A stretch of 35,640 nt of DNA from a virus. Lineage: Duplodnaviria > Heunggongvirae > Uroviricota > Caudoviricetes. The translations under genes and the position numbers were made by a program. The stretch covers positions 1 to 35,640 of IMG/VR virus record IMGVR_UViG_2740892107_000010. One strand, given 5' to 3'. This document shows positions 1 through 35,640 of the stretch, piece after piece. The notes under the pieces were generated by a model, which saw only the letters and a list, made by a program, of their open reading frames with translations, searched no databases and was not told the DNA's origin. Position 1 is the first letter of the stretch; each line of letters opens with the position of its first letter.

Positions 1-57
1 GGTATCCGTTCTGCTGAAGTGTCATGGCGTTGATTTTACGGTGACTCTTCGACAGTG

Positions 58-83
58 AAAAGAAAAAAGGCCGCAGAGCGGCC
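58..83 (-). terminator. Rho-independent terminator downstream of the int-adjacent gene
   Basis: Perfect 6-bp stem ggccgc / gcggcc with 3-nt loop (69-83), followed on the minus strand by a T-run (plus-strand A6 at 63-68). Confidence 0.5.
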
Positions 84-189
84 ATAAACACAAACAAAAA
101 TCAATAAGTTAGATAATTATCAAAGACTTACAGACACACAAAAACACAGCCAACCACAACAAATAACAGGGATGTGGTCACTTTGTGGA

Positions 190-606
190 TCATTCGCTCC
201 CCTCTTTTTCCTTATTTCGTTGAACGCCAATTGCGACACACGTACTAAGCAAATCTTTACATTTCTCTACATCTTCAGACTTACGCAATTTGATGCTTTT
301 TACAGACTGCGGGCTACTGTCCGTAGCACGATACATCGTTATTTCAATATCATTTCGGTCTAAGAGTCCCATAATGGCTTTTGCAACCTCCACACCCTTC
401 TTCGCGAAATCAAAGAACAGAGCAAGTTTATATGGATTTTCGACGGAAAAAACTTCAATTTTGCTAAAACCAACATCGTGTAGAGAAAAATATTGCTCAA
501 CCTCATCTCGAAGTTCTGGATCGCATACAATGTCTATTCTCCAGTACTGACCTAAATGCAAATCGCTATTAACTGTTTTTTCCACAACATCCTCCTTACC
601 CAGCAA
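190..606 (-). CDS. Hypothetical protein, AT-rich cargo gene downstream of integrase
   Basis: 138-aa ORF whose start overlaps the integrase stop region; visibly lower GC than the phage core; acidic/lysine-rich; no motif I recognise. Confidence 0.5.
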   Translation of the reverse strand: MLGKEDVVEKTVNSDLHLGQYWRIDIVCDPELRDEVEQYFSLHDVGFSKIEVFSVENPYKLALFFDFAKKGVEVAKAIMGLLDRNDIEITMYRATDSSPQSVKSIKLRKSEDVEKCKDLLSTCVAIGVQRNKEKEGSE

Positions 607-1570
607 TAGGATTAAATCTCACCGCATCCTGCAAGTAATCCGGCGCAAGATGGGCATAAATCATCGTTGTCTGAATCTTTGCGTGCCCCAGAATTTTCTG
701 GAGCGTCAGAATATTGCCGCCGTTCATCATGAAATGACTGGCGAAGGTGTGGCGCAGCGCATGAACAGCCTGGCCGTCAGGAACATCAGGTGCGACCGTT
801 TTGATGACATCGCGAACCAATGGATAATCCAGCGTCGGAAACACCAGTTTCCCGCCCCGTTTTTTGATCTTTTCAAACAGGCTTTCAGAAATAGGAACGG
901 TACGGTTTTTGCTGTTCTTCGTTTTTGAAAAAGTGATTCGACAATGAAGAACACGGCGCTGCTCCAGTGCCGCTACCTCGCCCCATCGCGCCCCGGTCGA
1001 CAGAAGGATTTCGACAGCCAGCCGTTCATCGGGATTTTCAGCCAGTGCATCCAGCAACTGAACACATTCAGACTTACTCAGATATCCCATTTCGCGCTCG
1101 TTAACCTTCATTCCTTTAAGGCCTTGAACGGGGTTATCGTTAAGAAAATGGCCGGATGAGATGAGTGCGGTAAACATCGCGCTTAACGCCCCAATCTCTC
1201 GATTAATGGTGCTGGGCTGTATCCCCTGCTCTATCCTGGACACACGTAGCTCGGTGAGCATCGTTGTATTAAGTTTATGCACACACGGGTCATCCATTGC
1301 CTCACTCAAGCGCAGCAATTTAAGGCGCGTGTTATGCCCTGACTTCATTAGCTGGCCGTGGTATTTCCACCACAAGTCAATAAGCACCGACAGCGGACGG
1401 CGATCAATGGAGTTTCCTTTCCACTCATTGTTATGCTGTTGCGCCAGCACCCACCGCTCATATAAAACTGCATCCGATTTCGTTTTAAATTTTTTTCGAA
1501 TGCGTTTGCCTTTACGCCCCTCTGGACGCATGTCAAGAAGATACCCTCCCGGAATTGATTTTATGCTCAT
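596..1570 (-). CDS. int: Tyrosine recombinase / phage integrase (186-type)
   Basis: N-terminus MSIKSIPGGYLLDMRPEGRKGKRIRKKF resembles the 186-family integrase N-terminus as I recall it; C-terminal HxLRHT...Y catalytic region (HALRHTFASHF...IYAHL). Start placed at the internal Met rather than the longer ORF start at 1720. Confidence 0.9.
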   Translation of the reverse strand: MSIKSIPGGYLLDMRPEGRKGKRIRKKFKTKSDAVLYERWVLAQQHNNEWKGNSIDRRPLSVLIDLWWKYHGQLMKSGHNTRLKLLRLSEAMDDPCVHKLNTTMLTELRVSRIEQGIQPSTINREIGALSAMFTALISSGHFLNDNPVQGLKGMKVNEREMGYLSKSECVQLLDALAENPDERLAVEILLSTGARWGEVAALEQRRVLHCRITFSKTKNSKNRTVPISESLFEKIKKRGGKLVFPTLDYPLVRDVIKTVAPDVPDGQAVHALRHTFASHFMMNGGNILTLQKILGHAKIQTTMIYAHLAPDYLQDAVRFNPIAG

Positions 1571-1619: not shown

Positions 1620-1928
1620 TTAGTCGGGCTGTGTGCCAGTTTTGCGGGATTTTTGAGAAGACGATGTGTTTTCTGGCCCATCAGGGGAGAGAGAGGGACT
1701 GATCTGCCCAGCAGCCTCATTTGTTTTTCCCGTCATAAGCCAATTCATGTACTTAAAAAAGCGAGGGTGATTAACAATCTTGATAAGCACTTCGCCCCCT
1801 ATGTTTTCAATCCGCCCCGTTTCATAACGACGCAAAGTGCCGATAGGCACATCAATCAGGCCGCAAAATTCTTCGCGCGTTAAATCCTCTGATTCACGAA
1901 TCACTCTAATTTTTTCACCGATAAGCAT
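1620..1928 (-). CDS. C: Immunity repressor, P2 C-like helix-turn-helix protein
   Basis: 102 aa, HTH-like N-terminus, C-terminal FFKYMNWLMTGK...GQISPSL pattern similar to P2 C as I recall it; leftward from a divergent promoter next to int. Confidence 0.75.
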   Translation of the reverse strand: MLIGEKIRVIRESEDLTREEFCGLIDVPIGTLRRYETGRIENIGGEVLIKIVNHPRFFKYMNWLMTGKTNEAAGQISPSLSPDGPENTSSSQKSRKTGTQPD

Positions 1929-3318: not shown

Positions 3319-3410
3319 CAGCTTAAACAAAAAACCAGATTAAACCCGAAAACCTGAAAACTATCCGCATTCGCGGAGGTATTCGCACACGTAAATAACG
3401 GAGATATAAA

Positions 3411-3827
3411 ATGAACGCAAAAGAAGAAGGCATTATCGACACATTAAAAAAAATATCAGAAGCGGAAGATGAAATGGCTAAAGATGCCGTGAAGCGTAGC
3501 CAACATATGGTAGCACTTCACGCACTGACCATTGCAAAAATCACCGCTGACGCAGCCAAAATTATTGAGGAACAGGGCAAAGAAATCGACACTCTTAAAA
3601 CACAGTCAACAGTTGCAGCCATGAATCCGTCCAGCATTGGACGCTGCATTTATATTCTTGGTTCAGCAATGATGCTGCAATACACCATTATTGCCGAACT
3701 GCACGGCAAATACCTGATAACGCCTTACCACACAAAAGAGTCAGAGCTTCTGACAAATCTCCGCCTGATAGAACGCTCTCAAGCTGTATTCATTGATGAC
3801 GCGCAACGTGCCGTATTTAACGCATAG
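3411..3827 (+). CDS. Hypothetical early protein
   Basis: 138-aa ORF with GGAG ribosome-binding site. Confidence 0.55.
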   Translation: MNAKEEGIIDTLKKISEAEDEMAKDAVKRSQHMVALHALTIAKITADAAKIIEEQGKEIDTLKTQSTVAAMNPSSIGRCIYILGSAMMLQYTIIAELHGKYLITPYHTKESELLTNLRLIERSQAVFIDDAQRAVFNA

Positions 3828-3850
3828 GGTTACTGGACAAAGGGGGCGCA

Positions 3851-4054
3851 ATGGCAATTAAGCATTTTCCCGTCGTTCGCTTTACCTCCAGAGGGCGCGA
3901 ATACGAGGTCGACGAACGCCTGATTACCACTATCGACAAACATCGTTCGGAAAAGGATGCACACCACATCTACCTCACTGACGGCACTTACTTCTGCGCC
4001 ACCAACGTGGCGCGGGTAAACCTTATCCGACAGGTACAGGAGCAGCGTAAATGA
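3851..4054 (+). CDS. Hypothetical small protein
   Basis: 67-aa ORF with AGGGGG ribosome-binding site. Confidence 0.5.
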   Translation: MAIKHFPVVRFTSRGREYEVDERLITTIDKHRSEKDAHHIYLTDGTYFCATNVARVNLIRQVQEQRK

Positions 4055-4224
4055 GCAGAAGGCGAATCACACGCAGGCATCGCCGCACACACATGAATTC
4101 CTTACCGACGCTGAAAGAACTCATTCAACGCGAGATCGCTGATTTCTGCGCAACGCTGGGGGTCGCCTGGCGAACCGGAAACACCGGAAGCAATACAGCG
4201 CGAGTTATCACAACGCATCAATAA
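4051..4224 (+). CDS. Hypothetical small basic protein
   Basis: 57-aa ORF starting MSRRRITRRHRRTH, ATG overlapping the upstream stop; not in the ORF track. Confidence 0.3.
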   Translation: MSRRRITRRHRRTHMNSLPTLKELIQREIADFCATLGVAWRTGNTGSNTARVITTHQ

Positions 4225-4266
4225 CGTTTTTGATTTTTTTCCTTAACCAGTAGGGAGCAAATCACA

Positions 4267-4818
4267 ATGAAACTCAAACCCATGGGCATCCCCGGTCAGG
4301 CACCAAGACACGTTAAACAATGGACGAAACAGGAAGATGCGTTGCTGATAAGCATGTACCCGAAACACAGCATCAGGGAAATGACATCCAGACTTAATCG
4401 CTCATTTCATGCAACGGGGCAGCGCCTTATCACCTTGCGCAAGCGAGGGCTGATTGGGCGGAAACGCCAGCGGCTGGATGAAAAGGCAATAGCAGAAATA
4501 ATCAGCAACCGCCACCGAAAAAGTAAGAGGGATATGGCGCGGGAAATGAAATGTAGCAAATGCACCATACAAAAAATACTCCGCGATCGTGGTTACAGCG
4601 CAATGAAGTGTGGAGGCATACATCATGCTGCTAAATACGACGATCATATTGTTCATCTGGTAACTGAATTGCGTGATGGGCACGGCATGCCATTCAGGGA
4701 AATAAGCAGACATATACACAAAATCACAGGGATACAGGTGGCATACAGCACAGTATGGTGGCTTTACAACCGCCGAACCGCCGCCGACGCCGTGCTGTAC
4801 GAGCTATTACCAAACTGA
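4267..4818 (+). CDS. Hypothetical early protein, basic, possibly DNA-binding
   Basis: 183-aa ORF with GGGAG ribosome-binding site; lysine/arginine-rich. Confidence 0.55.
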   Translation: MKLKPMGIPGQAPRHVKQWTKQEDALLISMYPKHSIREMTSRLNRSFHATGQRLITLRKRGLIGRKRQRLDEKAIAEIISNRHRKSKRDMAREMKCSKCTIQKILRDRGYSAMKCGGIHHAAKYDDHIVHLVTELRDGHGMPFREISRHIHKITGIQVAYSTVWWLYNRRTAADAVLYELLPN

Positions 4819-4937
4819 GTAATCATCATGCACACACAAAAAAACCGCTTGCCATGCCGCAATCAGTCAGGTTACATTTCCGCTGCACCTCATAAAACGG
4901 GTGCCGGGATTTCCACCCCGCTGACAACTACAGCGCA

Positions 4938-4959
4938 CAACCGCGCCAGCGGTTTTTTT
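4938..4959 (+). terminator. Rho-independent terminator
   Basis: Stem aaccgc / gcggtt with loop gcca, followed by T7 (4952-4959), downstream of the 4267-4818 gene. Confidence 0.55.
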
Positions 4960-5138
4960 GTGCGTACTGTATCGCCACGTCTTTTTCGCACACGAATTAT
5001 GGTGGGGCGTACGGGGCCGACTTCGGTCGGGCCGGGTTCTGTAGTTGCCGGTTGTGGAAACCCTGTACGTCTCACCACCCCGAGTTTTCCACCTCTGGAT
5101 GGTGAGTTTTCAAAACTTGCAACTACAGAGGCCACACC

Positions 5139-5369
5139 ATGGCAAACCGCAAACAGCACCGCGCTATCGCGGAGCGTCGTCACATCCAGACTGAAATCAA
5201 CCGCAGACTTTTCCGCGCATCACGCGTCGCGCAAATCATGCACATCAATATGCTGCATGAGCGCAGCCACGCACTATCAAACATTTATTCCGCCTCTGTT
5301 TTCAGCTATCTGGCGGATGATCTGCACGAGCTTCAACAGCTCATCCAGCAGCAAAACAAACTCCATTAA
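5139..5369 (+). CDS. Hypothetical small protein
   Basis: 76-aa ORF with GAGG ribosome-binding site. Confidence 0.5.
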   Translation: MANRKQHRAIAERRHIQTEINRRLFRASRVAQIMHINMLHERSHALSNIYSASVFSYLADDLHELQQLIQQQNKLH

Positions 5370-8697: not shown

Positions 8698-9657
8698 ATG
8701 AAAATTTGTATCGACGACGGCTCCACCAACATCAAGCTGGCATGGACTGAGAACGGCGAACGCCGCAACGCCATCAGCCCGAACAGCTTCAAGTCGGAAT
8801 GGTCTGCGCCGTTCGGTGGCACGCATCCCGCGAACTACATGCTTGATGGCGTGCGCTATGGCTTTGATCCGGTCAGCGATCGCTTTGTCCAGACGACTGA
8901 CACGCAATACCAGTACAGCGATGTGAATGTAATCGCCATTCATCACGCGCTGGTCAAATCAGGCATCACACCACAGGAAGTGGATGTGGTTGTCACCCTG
9001 CCACTGAGTGAGTATTTCGACACAAACGCACAGCCGGACATGGCCAACATCAACCGCAAAAAAGCGAACGTCATGCGCCCGGTGGAGTACCAGAACGGCG
9101 AAGCATTCACTATCCGTAACGTACGGGTTATGCCTGAATCCATTCCGGCTGGCTTTAAAGCACTGGCTGACATGAGTCCGTTTGAATCCCTGCTGATTGT
9201 GGATTTAGGCGGAACCACGCTGGATGTGGCAAAGGTTCAGGGACAACTGGCAGGTATCAGCCAGGTGTTTTGCGATCCACACGTAGGCGTTTCCCTGATG
9301 GCCGATGCCGTACTGTCGGTGATGGCCACTAACGGTATGCGTACCAGTCACCACATCGCCAATACCATTATCGAACATCGCCATGATGAAGCCTGGCTGC
9401 GCCAGCACATCCACAATGACGCGCATTACGCCAGCCTGATGGCGGTTATTCGTGAAAAGGAAGAAACACTGAAACAACGCGTGATCCGCGCGCTGGCGGG
9501 TTTTTCGGGTTACGGGCGGGTGATGGTTGTCGGTGGCGGGGCGGAGATTGTGGCACCCGCTATCCGCGAAGCCTGCGGAGTTAATGCGACTTTCATCGCG
9601 GACGGGGTGCCACAGTTTGCTCTGGTTAATGGGCTGTACGCAATGGACAAGGAGTAA
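8698..9657 (+). CDS. parM: ParM/StbA-like actin-family ATPase
   Basis: N-terminus MKICIDDGSTNIKLAW...ISPNSFKSEW...YQYSDVNVIAIHHALVKSGI closely resembles plasmid R1 ParM as I recall it (MLVFIDDGSTNIKLQW...). Confidence 0.8.
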   Translation: MKICIDDGSTNIKLAWTENGERRNAISPNSFKSEWSAPFGGTHPANYMLDGVRYGFDPVSDRFVQTTDTQYQYSDVNVIAIHHALVKSGITPQEVDVVVTLPLSEYFDTNAQPDMANINRKKANVMRPVEYQNGEAFTIRNVRVMPESIPAGFKALADMSPFESLLIVDLGGTTLDVAKVQGQLAGISQVFCDPHVGVSLMADAVLSVMATNGMRTSHHIANTIIEHRHDEAWLRQHIHNDAHYASLMAVIREKEETLKQRVIRALAGFSGYGRVMVVGGGAEIVAPAIREACGVNATFIADGVPQFALVNGLYAMDKE

Positions 9658-9660
9658 ACC

Positions 9661-9973
9661 AATGACGACACCAACCAGACGAATAAGTTTCTATCTGAAG
9701 CCTGCCGCCGTCAAGAACGAAGGCGAAGCATGCGCCTGGCTGGACAGCCTTACACCAGAAGCCCGTAAAAACGGCCAACGCGTGGCTTTTCTGGCTGGTC
9801 TGGCGCTTCTGAAAATGAATCCGGCAGAGGCTTACCGACTGGCAGCATGGGCTGACGATGAGGCGTTATCAGTGACACAAACCAGGACAGAACGCCCCCT
9901 GTCACAGCCAGTACCAACCGCACAGATAACCAGTCAGATGGCCGGAAATATCAGGGCATTATTTCCTGAATAA
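9661..9973 (+). CDS. parR: ParR-like adaptor protein
   Basis: 104 aa directly after parM; RISFYLKP...LDSLTPEARK...AFLAGLALLKMNP...ALFPE resembles R1 ParR as I recall it; AGGAG ribosome-binding site. Confidence 0.6.
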
Positions 9974-10036
9974 CACAACGTCAGGGCGAGTTCGCCCTGA
10001 TCTCCATCTCAGAACATAAACAAGAAGAGCGACTTA

Positions 10037-10420
10037 ATGAGCAAAATCAACTATCAGGCATTACGTGAACGTTATTCACCTGCACCAGTACCAAAATGCC
10101 CTATTTGCGGCGAAGAAATGTCAATTCAGCGAATATCTGGAGCACTGGTTGTTTATGGCTGCTCCGGTTATGGTGATGATGGAGATTTCAAAATTGGTCG
10201 AACTCTTGCCGACGAACATTATGAAAAATCACGCGTAACAGTGTTGGATGTCGGGGATCCTGAAGTATTGGCGCTACTTGATTGGCTGGAAACCAAAGAC
10301 AACCGAATCGCTGAACTGGAAAAAATCGCCACTGACTATGCACTTAAATTCCAGAAAGCACAGGACGCATTAAAGTACGCCGCTTTGCTGCATAGCAGGA
10401 CAGTGCAGCTACAAGACTAA
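10037..10420 (+). CDS. Hypothetical protein with N-terminal CxxC zinc-ribbon-like motif
   Basis: 127 aa; CPICGEE ... YGCSGYG; helical C-terminal half. Confidence 0.55.
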   Translation: MSKINYQALRERYSPAPVPKCPICGEEMSIQRISGALVVYGCSGYGDDGDFKIGRTLADEHYEKSRVTVLDVGDPEVLALLDWLETKDNRIAELEKIATDYALKFQKAQDALKYAALLHSRTVQLQD

Positions 10421-33646: not shown

Positions 33647-34816
33647 CTAATATTGAGAAAGATAATCAGCGACTCCATCTGCAGGGTTTCGCCCACCAGT
33701 ATAAATTGTGCCTAATTCTTGAGGTGTAACATATGTTGTAGGCCAAATGGCCATATTTTTAAAATAGTTATCTATTTTTATTCTTTGAAGTTCTTTAAAG
33801 AGATAATCTTCTAAGTCATTTCTTTTTAGACAGTTAACATAATAAGCAGCCGCACTTGCTACTATATCTACAATTTGTAATTGAGGATACTCTTGTGATG
33901 AATGGAATGTCAAAGAACGAGCTTTAATTGGCAATTCAAATTTTCTTCGATCATAACCATATGCCTCCGTAATTTTTGATATATCCATAAATTTATCAAA
34001 AATATCTTTCTTCTCTGTAATAGCTTTGGAATCGTCATGCTTAATATAAAAACCATTAGGGTATAATTTACCCCATTCTACACAGTGTCTAAAGAGGCTT
34101 GGTATAGATGGATCTAATGTGCTTTTCTCAACACCTTCCAATATATCATCAATATCGCTTCTGGTAATACTAATTCTGTTTATTATATCTGTGAATATCT
34201 TATCACTTGAGCATATCTTTAACTCATCAATTACCCTGTAAAATTCATCAATTGACTCAGTCGATTGGCTTCTGATCATATTCATAAAACACTGATACAT
34301 TACCTCTGTTTTTTCCTCCCCACAGAAAGCAGGGAAACAGAAATAGTAAACATTAGACAGAGCTAGATTCTGTCCATTTATATAAAGATCTATTCCTCTA
34401 TTAGAGCACCACGTCTCGATCAAAATATCAACAATCTTTGCTGTTAGCATGTATTTTTTATCGACCAAGTATATTTTAACATTCTCTTCATTGACATATT
34501 TGCTTTCAAGAAGCCTAATGATGCCATCCTGACCAGATTTTCTACGTCTAAGAGTTTTAAAGTGGGCTTCTGTTGGAGACTTGCTTCCGGTTAGTTCTAA
34601 TGCCTTAAGCGCATCCTGTTTACTAATACTACTTGAACTTAAGGTAAAAACAGGTTGCAATGGATCGAGTAAATTTCCGCCAGTATTACCTGATTCATCA
34701 AAAAATATATCAGGCTTTATATACAACATTTTATTTATCTTTGCCGCTAAGTTTCTTTTTTTCTCATTTTCTCGCTTAATTTTATTATCTCGCCTACGTT
34801 GACTATTCTTTCCCAT
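33647..34816 (-). CDS. AT-rich 389-aa cargo protein of unknown function (DUF3800-like N-terminal motif, tentative)
   Basis: Low GC; GAGG ribosome-binding site 5 nt upstream of ATG 34816; N-terminal IFFDESGNTG motif that I recall as typical of the DUF3800 family; inserted between D and ogr on the opposite strand. Confidence 0.7.
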   Translation of the reverse strand: MGKNSQRRRDNKIKRENEKKRNLAAKINKMLYIKPDIFFDESGNTGGNLLDPLQPVFTLSSSSISKQDALKALELTGSKSPTEAHFKTLRRRKSGQDGIIRLLESKYVNEENVKIYLVDKKYMLTAKIVDILIETWCSNRGIDLYINGQNLALSNVYYFCFPAFCGEEKTEVMYQCFMNMIRSQSTESIDEFYRVIDELKICSSDKIFTDIINRISITRSDIDDILEGVEKSTLDPSIPSLFRHCVEWGKLYPNGFYIKHDDSKAITEKKDIFDKFMDISKITEAYGYDRRKFELPIKARSLTFHSSQEYPQLQIVDIVASAAAYYVNCLKRNDLEDYLFKELQRIKIDNYFKNMAIWPTTYVTPQELGTIYTGGRNPADGVADYLSQY

Positions 34817-35499: not shown

Positions 35500-35640
35500 A
35501 TGTCGCAAAAATCGCTTACGGCCATCACGTTCTGCGTGACGGCAATCCTCATCATCTGGATGCTGCACGGTTCGCTGTGCGAAATACGGATGAGCTTCTG
35601 GGGAGCGGAGTTTGCGGCGTTCTTACAGTGTAAGCAGTAA
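35500..35640 (+). CDS. hok: Hok/Gef-family type I toxin (HokA-like)
   Basis: 46 aa MSQKSLTAITFCVTAILIIWMLHGSLCEIRMSFWGAEFAAFLQCKQ: single transmembrane helix followed by the SLCE[IL] and AAFL motifs of Hok proteins; AGGAG ribosome-binding site; stop is the last codon of the window. Confidence 0.7.
   Translation: MSQKSLTAITFCVTAILIIWMLHGSLCEIRMSFWGAEFAAFLQCKQ

What the first reader, a model, noticed from the sequence alone, without database searches (positions are those of the whole stretch)
190..606. AT-rich gene translationally coupled to the integrase 3-prime end
A 138-aa acidic protein with no recognisable motif starts within the last codons of int and is followed by a clean terminator. 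Its low GC suggests cargo acquired between int and the attachment site.
Basis: inference. Interest (0 to 1): 0.5.

Follow-up and report, generated by a model that had tools for sequence, protein, structure and literature searches.

The report
Swappable prophage gene beside integrase
A small, AT-rich gene of unknown function sits in an exchangeable slot between the integrase gene and the attachment site of a P2-like E. coli prophage: a real accessory gene in a known variable spot, but nothing yet shows what it does.

Summary
The gene is real, but its start needs correcting. The conserved start is GTG at 585 (131 aa, RefSeq WP_000416304.1, PHROG 14142), 10 nt after the int stop. Its Shine-Dalgarno sequence overlaps that stop.

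The window is a P2-like prophage inserted between btuC and ihfA of E. coli. Comparison with an empty site and with attR puts the 25-nt att core at 59-83. P2-type Int arm repeats lie at 173-192. The gene is therefore phage cargo, not a host gene.

Bases ~194-608 form an exchangeable cassette. Of 306 complete E. coli genomes with this att arm, 159 carry this gene, 86 carry an unrelated two-gene cassette and 39 a DUF1640 cassette.

The gene is under purifying selection (dN/dS 0.17-0.32). Its family is small and confined to Enterobacterales. Distant homologues occupy the slot on the other side of attP in other P2-like prophages and remnants.

Best guess, inferred only: a lysogen-expressed accessory protein acting in phage-phage conflict. 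A 2026 paper already describes the int-att region of P2-like phages as a minor defence hotspot. Modest interest.

The parts
59..83 (.). attL core (25 nt, AAAGAAAAAAGGCCGCAGAGCGGCC). It is identical in attL, in attR of the E2348/69 relative, and in the empty attB of K-12.
58..83 (-). Intrinsic terminator (stem GGCCGCTCTGCGGCC plus TTTTTTCTTT). This is the host ihfA terminator, rebuilt at attL. It is the only terminator-like site downstream of the C-int-ORF genes.
84..172 (.). Spacer on the P' side of attP. In P2 the Cox-binding sites occupy this position. It is conserved at 96-100% in nearly all of the 306 E. coli genomes that match the 84-189 query, whatever their cargo.
173..192 (+). P' arm: two direct arm-type Int-binding repeats (TGTGGTCA ctt TGTGGATCA) with an 11-nt period, as in P2. 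The stop codon of the ORF (192-190) lies inside the second repeat.
190..585 (-). The gene: 131 aa, GTG start, WP_000416304.1, PHROG 14142, function unknown.
194..608 (.). Exchangeable cassette. Sequence conservation among sibling prophages stops at 193 and resumes at 609, so the last 3-4 codons of int are swapped along with the cargo.
591..597 (-). Shine-Dalgarno sequence AAGGAGG of the gene. It overlaps the int stop codon TAA (598-596).
   Evidence: read directly from the sequence
596..1570 (-). Tyrosine integrase of P2 type (Int_N plus Phage_integrase domains).
1620..1928 (-). C-type immunity repressor (HTH). It is the first gene of the presumed C-int-ORF lysogenic operon.
   Evidence: operon inferred by analogy with the P2 annotation

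Best explanation
The gene is an accessory ('moron'-type) cargo gene of a P2-like prophage. It sits in a ~415-bp exchangeable slot between the integrase stop codon and the P' arm of attP.

Shown:
- It lies inside the prophage.
- It is one of at least four alternative cassettes at this slot.
- It is protein-coding and under purifying selection.
- Its relatives occupy att-proximal slots of other P2-like prophages.

Inferred (about 0.7): it has no promoter of its own and is transcribed with C and int from the lysogenic promoter Pc. The Shine-Dalgarno sequence overlaps the int stop, no terminator intervenes, and the transcript would end at the att-core hairpin. The protein would therefore be made in lysogens.

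Inferred (about 0.35-0.4): the 15-kDa cytoplasmic alpha/beta protein has no catalytic motif. It would act by binding a partner, probably a protein or nucleic acid of an incoming phage or satellite, and so give exclusion or defence, as other P2 hotspot cargo does (old, tin, fun).
For: Position:
- The empty site matches only window 1-83. The 25-nt core is shared by attL, attR and attB.
- P2-type arm repeats lie at 173-192 and on the attR side, with P2-like spacing.

Cassette polymorphism, in 5426 complete E. coli genomes:
- The att arm is in 306 genomes and the int in 299. This gene is in 159, a 145+120-aa cassette in 86, a DUF1640 cassette in 39, and there are others.
- The breakpoints are at 193/194 and 608/609.
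- Every alternative cassette also starts 2-10 nt after the int stop or overlaps it.

Real gene:
- dN/dS is 0.17-0.32, the length of 131 aa is conserved, and the start is conserved.
- PHROG 14142, E 8.6e-70.

Independence from int:
- Homologues sit on the ogr side of attP, or in remnants that lack int, at three other integration sites: the cyaR 3' end, raiA, and a beta-ketoacyl synthase gene.

Operon:
- There is no terminator-like site on the minus strand between 84 and 2100.
- The gaps are 49 nt (C-int) and 10 nt (int-ORF).
- P2 transcribes C and int from Pc; the Pc promoter is annotated.

Literature:
- The int-att region of P2-like phages holds 3% of their recognisable defence systems and is proposed as a defence hotspot (PMC13586616).
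- A third P2 hotspot between a tail protein gene and the CI regulator gene is reported in bioRxiv 10.1101/2024.10.15.618418.
Against: - There is no direct evidence of any function.
- No PADLOC, Pfam, NCBIfam or PDB relative was found.
- None of the alternative cassettes is a recognised defence system either.
- The simple promoter scan did not even detect Pc, so neither an internal promoter nor its absence is established.
- 131 aa is small for an autonomous defence effector.
- A mildly acidic small protein would fit an inhibitor (anti-defence) just as well.
- The gene has stayed linked with this int from E. coli to Salmonella phages (ORF 60-62% identical, int 82-83%). It is therefore not a recent, fast-turnover acquisition in this lineage.
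Confidence: 0.45

Rival explanations
1. Counter-defence protein. A small, mildly acidic inhibitor made from Pc early after infection, while lysogeny is being established, and in the lysogen. It would block a host or rival-element immune system, or a satellite.
For: - The protein is small and mildly acidic (pI 5.15), with no catalytic motif.
- It sits in a phage variable region.
- A few anti-RM and anti-CRISPR genes are reported in P2-like prophages (PMC13586616).
Against: - That paper found anti-defence genes in only 28 P2 elements.
- It found no anti-defence genes in P4.
- Homologues are kept in remnants without int, and in a prophage region widespread in Salmonella. That suits a host-beneficial gene better than one needed only during infection.
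- No similarity to any known inhibitor was found.
Confidence: 0.15
2. Lysogenic-conversion factor acting on host physiology. For example, a small ligand-binding or regulatory protein of ACT/PII-like type, unrelated to phage conflict.
For: - The best fold matches are regulatory alpha/beta sandwiches: ACT, PII-like, CutA.
- The gene is retained next to host genes in remnants.
- It occurs in pathogenic lineages such as EPEC E2348/69, O104:H4, O111, O26 and O55:H7.
Against: - The topology (b-a-b-a-b-b-a-b) is not the canonical b-a-b-b-a-b.
- No sequence or profile match supports it.
- There is no signal peptide or secretion signal.
Confidence: 0.15
3. Accessory factor of site-specific recombination: a partner or modulator of Int, encoded directly after int and next to the P' arm.
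For: - The gene is immediately downstream of int with a coupled ribosome-binding site.
- Its stop codon lies inside the P' arm repeat.
- It has co-diverged with this int between E. coli and Salmonella prophages.
Against: - About half of the prophages with an int that is at least 98% identical, and the same att, lack the gene and carry unrelated cargo.
- Homologues occur without int and beside other att sites.
- The protein is acidic and has no DNA-binding motif.
- P2-type phages use Cox and IHF, and a cox-position gene is present at 2025-2303.
Confidence: 0.05
4. Host gene or non-functional ORF. Either the att site lies between int and the ORF, or the ORF is a chance reading frame in AT-rich DNA.
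For: Only the low GC content and the lack of annotation.
Against: - All 5426 E. coli genomes share window 1-83, but only 159 have the ORF.
- The K-12 empty site has 100 nt between btuC and ihfA and no such gene.
- The core and the arm sites lie beyond the ORF.
- dN/dS is 0.17-0.32 across saturated synonymous divergence.
Confidence: 0.01

Closest known systems
Accessory-gene hotspots of P2-like phages: old/tin between gpA and gpQ, Z/fun in the tail region, and the minor int-att hotspot (Rousset 2022, PMC9122126; PMC13586616; bioRxiv 10.1101/2024.10.15.618418)
   Same: - A variable cassette between conserved flanks.
- Alternative unrelated cargo in sibling prophages.
- AT-rich composition.
- Carried inside the att-delimited phage genome.
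- The int-att location is explicitly described in PMC13586616.
   Different: - This cargo matches no known defence or anti-defence family.
- The slot is tiny (~415 bp to ~1.1 kb), and its right breakpoint lies inside the last codons of int.
- The cargo seems to depend on the C-int transcript and on the att-core terminator, rather than being a self-contained unit.
Phage P2 attP / int region (NC_001895)
   Same: - The same order: ogr, P arm, core, spacer, P' arm, int.
- The same arm-repeat motif (TGTGGnCA twice, 11-nt period) and similar spacings.
- A C-int arrangement facing a cox-type gene.
   Different: - In P2 the P' arm lies inside the 3' end of int, with no room for cargo.
- Here int ends ~400 nt further away, and the ORF's 3' end takes the place next to the P' arm.
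- The core sequence and the integration site differ: here the ihfA terminator between ihfA and btuC.
Morons in the Hendrix sense: extra genes between conserved phage genes, expressed from the prophage (recalled from general knowledge)
   Same: - Presence/absence polymorphism between otherwise collinear phages.
- Deviant base composition.
- Probable expression in the lysogen.
- Distant homologues on the ogr side are flanked by hairpins on both sides.
   Different: - No promoter of its own was detected for the window copy.
- Its terminator is the att core.
- It behaves as the last cistron of the immunity-integrase operon.
ACT / PII-like / CutA ferredoxin-like alpha/beta sandwich domains
   Different: - There is no sequence or profile similarity.
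- The secondary-structure order differs.
- Foldseek gave no significant hit.
- This is resemblance at fold level only.

Membership tests
P2-like (Peduoviridae) prophage | C repressor and P2-type tyrosine integrase transcribed together, facing a cox-type early operon; gpA replication protein; Q-P / O-N-M-L capsid genes; P2 tail genes; ogr | tested here: met
   - Int_N plus Phage_integrase domains, and an HTH repressor.
- RefSeq annotation of the near-identical E2348/69 prophage lists all of these modules.
- ogr and gpD ORFs are present in the window.
P2-type attP | Core flanked by arm-type Int sites, each two direct repeats (TGTGGnCA) 11 nt apart. P arm about 36-63 nt from the core, P' arm about 87-113 nt from the core. 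| tested here: met
   - P2 annotation and sequence.
- Window 173-188 is the only match in 35.6 kb, 90-109 nt from the core.
- L002 4040-4055 is the only match in 7 kb, 41-56 nt from the core.
- Binding by Int was not tested.
Prophage cargo (inside the mobile element) | Absent from the empty attB, and located between attL and attR | tested here: met
   - The empty site matches only 1-83.
- The 25-nt core is duplicated at the far end of the E2348/69 relative.
- attR lies outside the window itself.
Hotspot cassette | Unrelated alternative genes at the same position between conserved flanks in related elements | tested here: met
   - At least four cassettes were found.
- Counts are 159, 86 and 39 of 306.
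- The breakpoints are sharp.
Known anti-phage defence system | Match to a described defence protein family | tested here: not met
   PADLOC-DB v2.0.0 gave 0 families at E <= 10. DefenseFinder models were not available.
Known anti-phage defence system | Reduces plating or burst of a challenging phage | not testable with these tools
   This needs a wet-lab phage challenge.
Moron (autonomous transcription unit) | Own promoter upstream and own terminator downstream | tested here: inconclusive
   - No sigma-70-like site was found on the minus strand in 600-2100, but the scan also missed Pc.
- The terminator is present, but it is the att core.
Translationally coupled gene pair | Overlapping or abutting stop and start codons (such as ATGA or TAATG), so that terminating ribosomes re-initiate | tested here: inconclusive
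   - The conserved start is 10 nt after the int stop, with the Shine-Dalgarno sequence over the stop codon.
- The overlapping TTG at 606 is not supported by homologues.
- Coupling itself was not tested.
ACT / PII-like ferredoxin-fold regulators | b-a-b-b-a-b topology with family sequence signatures and a ligand-binding loop | tested here: not met
   - The model order is b-a-b-a-b-b-a-b.
- There is no Pfam or PDB profile match.
PD-(D/E)XK nuclease (the name one source gives to a Citrobacter homologue) | Conserved D ... (D/E)xK catalytic motif on an a-b-b-b-a-b core | tested here: not met
   - The invariant columns contain no (D/E)xK.
- There is no Pfam or NCBIfam hit.
- The name appears once among the listed cluster members.
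Excisionase / recombination directionality factor | Small, basic, DNA-binding (winged-helix or HTH) protein required with a given Int | tested here: not met
   - The protein is acidic (pI 5.15) and has no HTH match.
- It is absent from about half of the prophages with the same int.

The most novel reading that the evidence does not exclude
The protein founds a new single-gene family of prophage conflict proteins (defence, exclusion or anti-defence) with no detectable relative. It is expressed as the last cistron of the immunity-integrase operon.

The family also keeps one orientation relative to attP in both flanking slots. It always lies downstream of int in the circular phage. In the ogr-side slot it ends up downstream of a host gene once the phage integrates. 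Its expression could therefore depend on the integration state.
Probability: 0.25. Interest if true: 0.55.

Novelty: new member of a known kind. Interest (0 to 1): 0.3.

Why it matters
P2-like prophages are among the richest known sources of new anti-phage systems, and the int-att slot has only recently been recognised as a minor hotspot.

This locus gives a precisely bounded, very small slot: ~415 bp to ~1.1 kb, with breakpoints in the last int codons and at the P' arm. It holds at least four uncharacterised alternative cassettes, present in about 5.6% of complete E. coli genomes.

If the 131-aa protein or its alternatives prove to be defence or counter-defence factors, they would be compact new tools. 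They would also show that the lysogenic C-int transcript is used to express conflict genes.

If not, this is simply a well-delimited example of ordinary prophage cargo.

Tried and rejected
Searches that found nothing useful:
- Sequence-family searches of the protein against Pfam, NCBIfam and PADLOC. The only hit was a meaningless L23 match at E 0.14.
- Pfam scans of nine family members run individually.
- A PDB profile search, best E 0.16.
- tblastn against 50,697 phage records, no match.
- A word-indexed protein search (11 clusters) and an exhaustive HMM search of 1.84 billion representatives (16 hits, of which 11 at E <= 1e-10 are family members or fragments and the weaker ones are mostly long repetitive proteins). 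The family is small, and no remote homologue gives a function.
- A literature search for WP_000416304 (0 papers).

Fold searches on the AlphaFold model (pLDDT 74.9, pTM 0.70):
- Foldseek against PDB and BFVD gave no hit at E <= 0.001.
- The AFDB library was unavailable.

Alternative cassettes:
- I looked for known defence domains to support guilt by association. I found only coiled-coil noise, zinc-ribbon hints and a sub-threshold HEPN match at E 0.04.

Ideas rejected:
- Host-gene status.
- The TTG-606 start.
- An RDF or Int-accessory role, because the gene is absent from half of the same-int prophages and is present without int elsewhere.
- The 'PDDEXK nuclease' label given to one homologue.

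Other:
- The simple sigma-70 scan found no promoter for the gene in any context. It also missed Pc, so it is uninformative.
- The search for related loci with the nine-sequence alignment failed because no stretch was conserved enough. A four-sequence alignment gave two loci.

Full report
**Observation**

The minus strand carries an ORF at 190-606 (TTG, 138 aa). It lies directly downstream of a P2-type tyrosine integrase at 596-1570 (Int_N and Phage_integrase domains) and an HTH repressor at 1620-1928.

The ORF is AT-rich: GC 39.4% against 49.2% for int and 51.9% for the window, and GC3 34.8% against 53.2%.

- PHROG 14142 aligns residues 8-135 of the 138-aa translation to profile positions 1-128 of 128, E 8.6e-70.
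- RefSeq annotates 190-585 as WP_000416304.1.
- The Salmonella homologues have ATG exactly where the window has GTG at 585.

The protein is therefore 131 aa, with pI 5.15. Its GTG lies 10 nt after the int TAA (598-596), and an AAGGAGG Shine-Dalgarno sequence (597-591) overlaps that stop codon.

**Where the attachment site is**

The first 700 bases are 100% identical to E. coli E2348/69. There the window starts right after btuC.

All 5426 complete E. coli genomes match window 1-83, but only 159 match most of 1-700. In an empty site (K-12 RP437), btuC and ihfA are 100 nt apart and homology to the window ends at base 83.

The far end of the E2348/69 prophage, next to ihfA, repeats 25 nt exactly: AAAGAAAAAAGGCCGCAGAGCGGCC. 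This is window 59-83, L002 4096-4120 and attB L004 1559-1583.

This core is the ihfA terminator hairpin. On the minus strand it reads GGCCGCTCTGCGGCC followed by TTTTTTCTTT, and it is the only terminator-like site on that strand in 1-2100.

**attP anatomy**

The annotated P2 genome has this order: ogr, terminator, P arm (Int), IHF site, core, Cox sites, P' arm (Int). Its arm sites are two TGTGGnCA repeats 11 nt apart, and its P' arm lies inside the 3' end of int.

The window has the same motif, TGTGGTCActtTGTGGATCA, at 173-192. That is 90-109 nt from the core and is the only match in the 35.6-kb window. The attR side has TGTGGACgcaTCGTGG 41-56 nt from the core, the only match in 7 kb.

The ORF's stop codon (192-190) lies inside the second P' repeat. 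Compared with P2, about 400 bp carrying this ORF separates int from the P' arm. The gene is therefore inside the phage and outside the minimal attP.

**An exchangeable slot**

Counts in the 5426 genomes:

| Feature | Genomes |
|---|---|
| P'-side arm (84-189) | 306 |
| This int | 299 |
| This ORF | 159 |
| Cassette of 145 aa + 120 aa | 86 |
| DUF1640 protein, with or without a 166-aa zinc-ribbon-like protein | 39 (23 full length) |

- The ORF is always single-copy and chromosomal. In 158 genomes it is at least 95% identical, and in one it is 77.5% identical.
- At least one further cassette exists, of 257 aa + 125 aa.
- The counts for the alternative cassettes were not each checked to lie at this locus, but all are single-copy and chromosomal.

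Alignments show conservation ending at window 193 and resuming at 609. The last 3-4 codons of int are therefore exchanged together with the cargo. Every alternative cassette also begins 2-10 nt after the int stop or overlaps it. None of the alternative proteins belongs to a known defence family. The searches returned only coiled-coil noise, zinc-ribbon hints and a sub-threshold HEPN match.

**The gene family**

The family is small: 11 clusters in the word-indexed search and 16 hits among 1.84 billion representatives. It has no match in 50,697 deposited phage genomes.

Close relatives in Salmonella are 60-63% identical and have the same int-ORF-btuC arrangement. Between the window and the GF60 and Salmonella copies the ORF is 60-71% identical, while int is 82-83% identical. 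dS is saturated (about 1-1.5) and dN/dS is 0.17-0.27, with no indels; the two Salmonella copies compared with each other give 0.32. This is a functional gene that has been associated with this int module for a long time.

Distant relatives (30-36% identity) lie on the other side of attP:
- In a metagenomic P2-like prophage the order is: beta-ketoacyl synthase, att, arm repeats, hairpin, ORF, terminator, then convergent ogr and gpD.
- In Enterobacter soli the homologue sits alone in a 762-bp segment flanked by a 20-nt direct repeat. That repeat is the CyaR sRNA 3' end, and there is no int.
- In many Salmonella and Citrobacter genomes it follows raiA at the edge of a phage tail-gene region. The same IHF-like and arm-repeat sequences are present there.
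- A truncated copy in Symbiopectobacterium abuts ogr.

The family is thus an att-proximal cargo of P2-like phages, and it does not depend on any particular integrase.

In all these cases the ORF points the same way relative to attP, downstream of int in the circular form. Once integrated, the ogr-side copies lie downstream of the host gene, in the same orientation.

**The protein**

It has no Pfam, NCBIfam or PADLOC match and no PDB profile match.

The AlphaFold2 model (7-sequence alignment, pLDDT 74.9, pTM 0.70) is a two-layer alpha/beta sandwich with the order b-a-b-a-b-b-a-b.

The most conserved stretch is IMGLLxRNDIEI, at the end of helix 2 and in strand 3. I could not identify a catalytic or metal-binding motif. 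One database entry calls a homologue a 'PDDEXK nuclease', but nothing supports that label.

**How it most likely works**

Shown: the gene is phage cargo in a swappable slot.

Inferred (about 0.7): it is the last cistron of the C-int lysogenic operon.
- The gaps are 49 nt and 10 nt.
- No terminator lies between the genes.
- The Shine-Dalgarno sequence overlaps the int stop.
- Termination would occur at the att-core hairpin, which is intact in both attP and attL because the T-run is part of the core.
- By analogy with P2, where Pc drives C and int (plus general knowledge of P2), the protein would be made in lysogens.

Inferred (about 0.35-0.4): it serves inter-phage conflict by binding a partner, not by catalysis. 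The grounds are the hotspot location, the alternative cassettes, and published evidence that the int-att region of P2-like phages carries defence systems (PMC13586616; bioRxiv 10.1101/2024.10.15.618418).

Rivals:
- A counter-defence inhibitor (0.15).
- A host-physiology conversion factor (0.15).
- An Int accessory factor (0.05). This is contradicted by the gene's absence from half of the same-int prophages and by its presence without int elsewhere.
- A host gene or chance ORF (refuted).

**Comparison and novelty**

The locus type is known. P2 hotspots are well described (PMC9122126), and the int-att slot is named as a minor defence hotspot in a 2026 paper.

What is added here:
- The exact anatomy of one such slot: its breakpoints, its use of the att core as terminator, and the SD-over-stop design.
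- A census of its cassettes.
- The finding that this uncharacterised family occupies both att-flanking slots.

I file it as a new member of a known kind. Interest is modest: it is a reasonable candidate for a phage-challenge experiment, but nothing about it is surprising to a specialist yet.

**Caveats**

- The window itself does not contain attR. attR was taken from the E2348/69 relative, which is mosaic with the window (94-99% identical blocks) but identical over the first 700 bases.
- The promoter scan is too crude to locate Pc or to exclude an internal promoter.
- The structure model rests on a shallow alignment.

Noticed in passing
window 35500-35640 (+): A Hok/Gef-family toxin gene (46 aa, PF01848, E 4e-7) sits after ogr, in the ogr-att slot on the other side of attP. 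In the circular phage it would converge on the studied gene across attP. No Sok-like RNA was looked for.
   Followed up: partly
window 33647-34816 (-): An AT-rich 389-aa DUF3800 protein (PF12686, E 3.5e-10) lies between gpD and ogr. It has no PADLOC hit. The E2348/69 relative has a different gene there. This is another variable slot in the region between the tail genes and the repressor.
   Followed up: partly
window 4885-5082 (+): Rfam matches above the gathering scores to isrK (4885-4959, 63.6 bits) and C4 antisense RNA (4995-5082, 80.5 bits), just downstream of an HTH protein gene (4267-4818). The E2348/69 relative lacks most of 3391-5327. This looks like a P1/P7/P4-type antisense immunity module inside a P2-like early region.
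   Followed up: no
window 8698-10420 (+): The gpA-gpQ (old/tin) hotspot carries ParM (8698-9657), a Plasmid_stab_B/ParR-like protein (9527-9973) and an Ead/Ea22-like protein (10037-10420), rather than a recognisable defence system. The E2348/69 relative has in addition an AAA ATPase plus an S8 peptidase pair there.
   Followed up: partly
L009 1558-2407 (Enterobacter soli): A 762-bp segment is flanked by a 20-nt direct repeat of the CyaR sRNA 3' end. It contains only a 128-aa homologue of the studied gene and P2-type arm/IHF-like sequences. It appears to be a minimal prophage remnant that kept just this gene.
   Followed up: partly
L021 5843-7421 (Salmonella enterica), also L019, L022-L025: A 128-aa homologue (30% identity to the window protein) directly follows raiA at the edge of a phage tail-gene region. 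The exact sequence is indexed in more than 2000 blocks of the collection, so it is widespread in Salmonella. About 1 kb with no called gene follows it, rich in GTGACGG/GTGATG repeats.
   Followed up: no
L003 4193-5231, L006 2626-3422, L007 3088-4228: These are the alternative cassettes at the same int-att slot. They are DUF1640/CCDC90-like coiled-coil protein plus a 166-aa zinc-ribbon-like protein, a 145-aa coiled-coil protein plus a 120-aa protein, and a 257-aa protein plus a 125-aa protein with a sub-threshold HEPN match (E 0.04). All are uncharacterised and are candidate two-gene systems.
   Followed up: partly
window 609-620 versus L003, L006, L011: The integrase C-terminus varies with the cassette (...FNPIAG*, ...FNPLGGM*). 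In GF60 the int stop is lost, which extends int by about 10 residues over the start of the cargo gene. Cassette exchange therefore rewrites the last int codons.
   Followed up: partly
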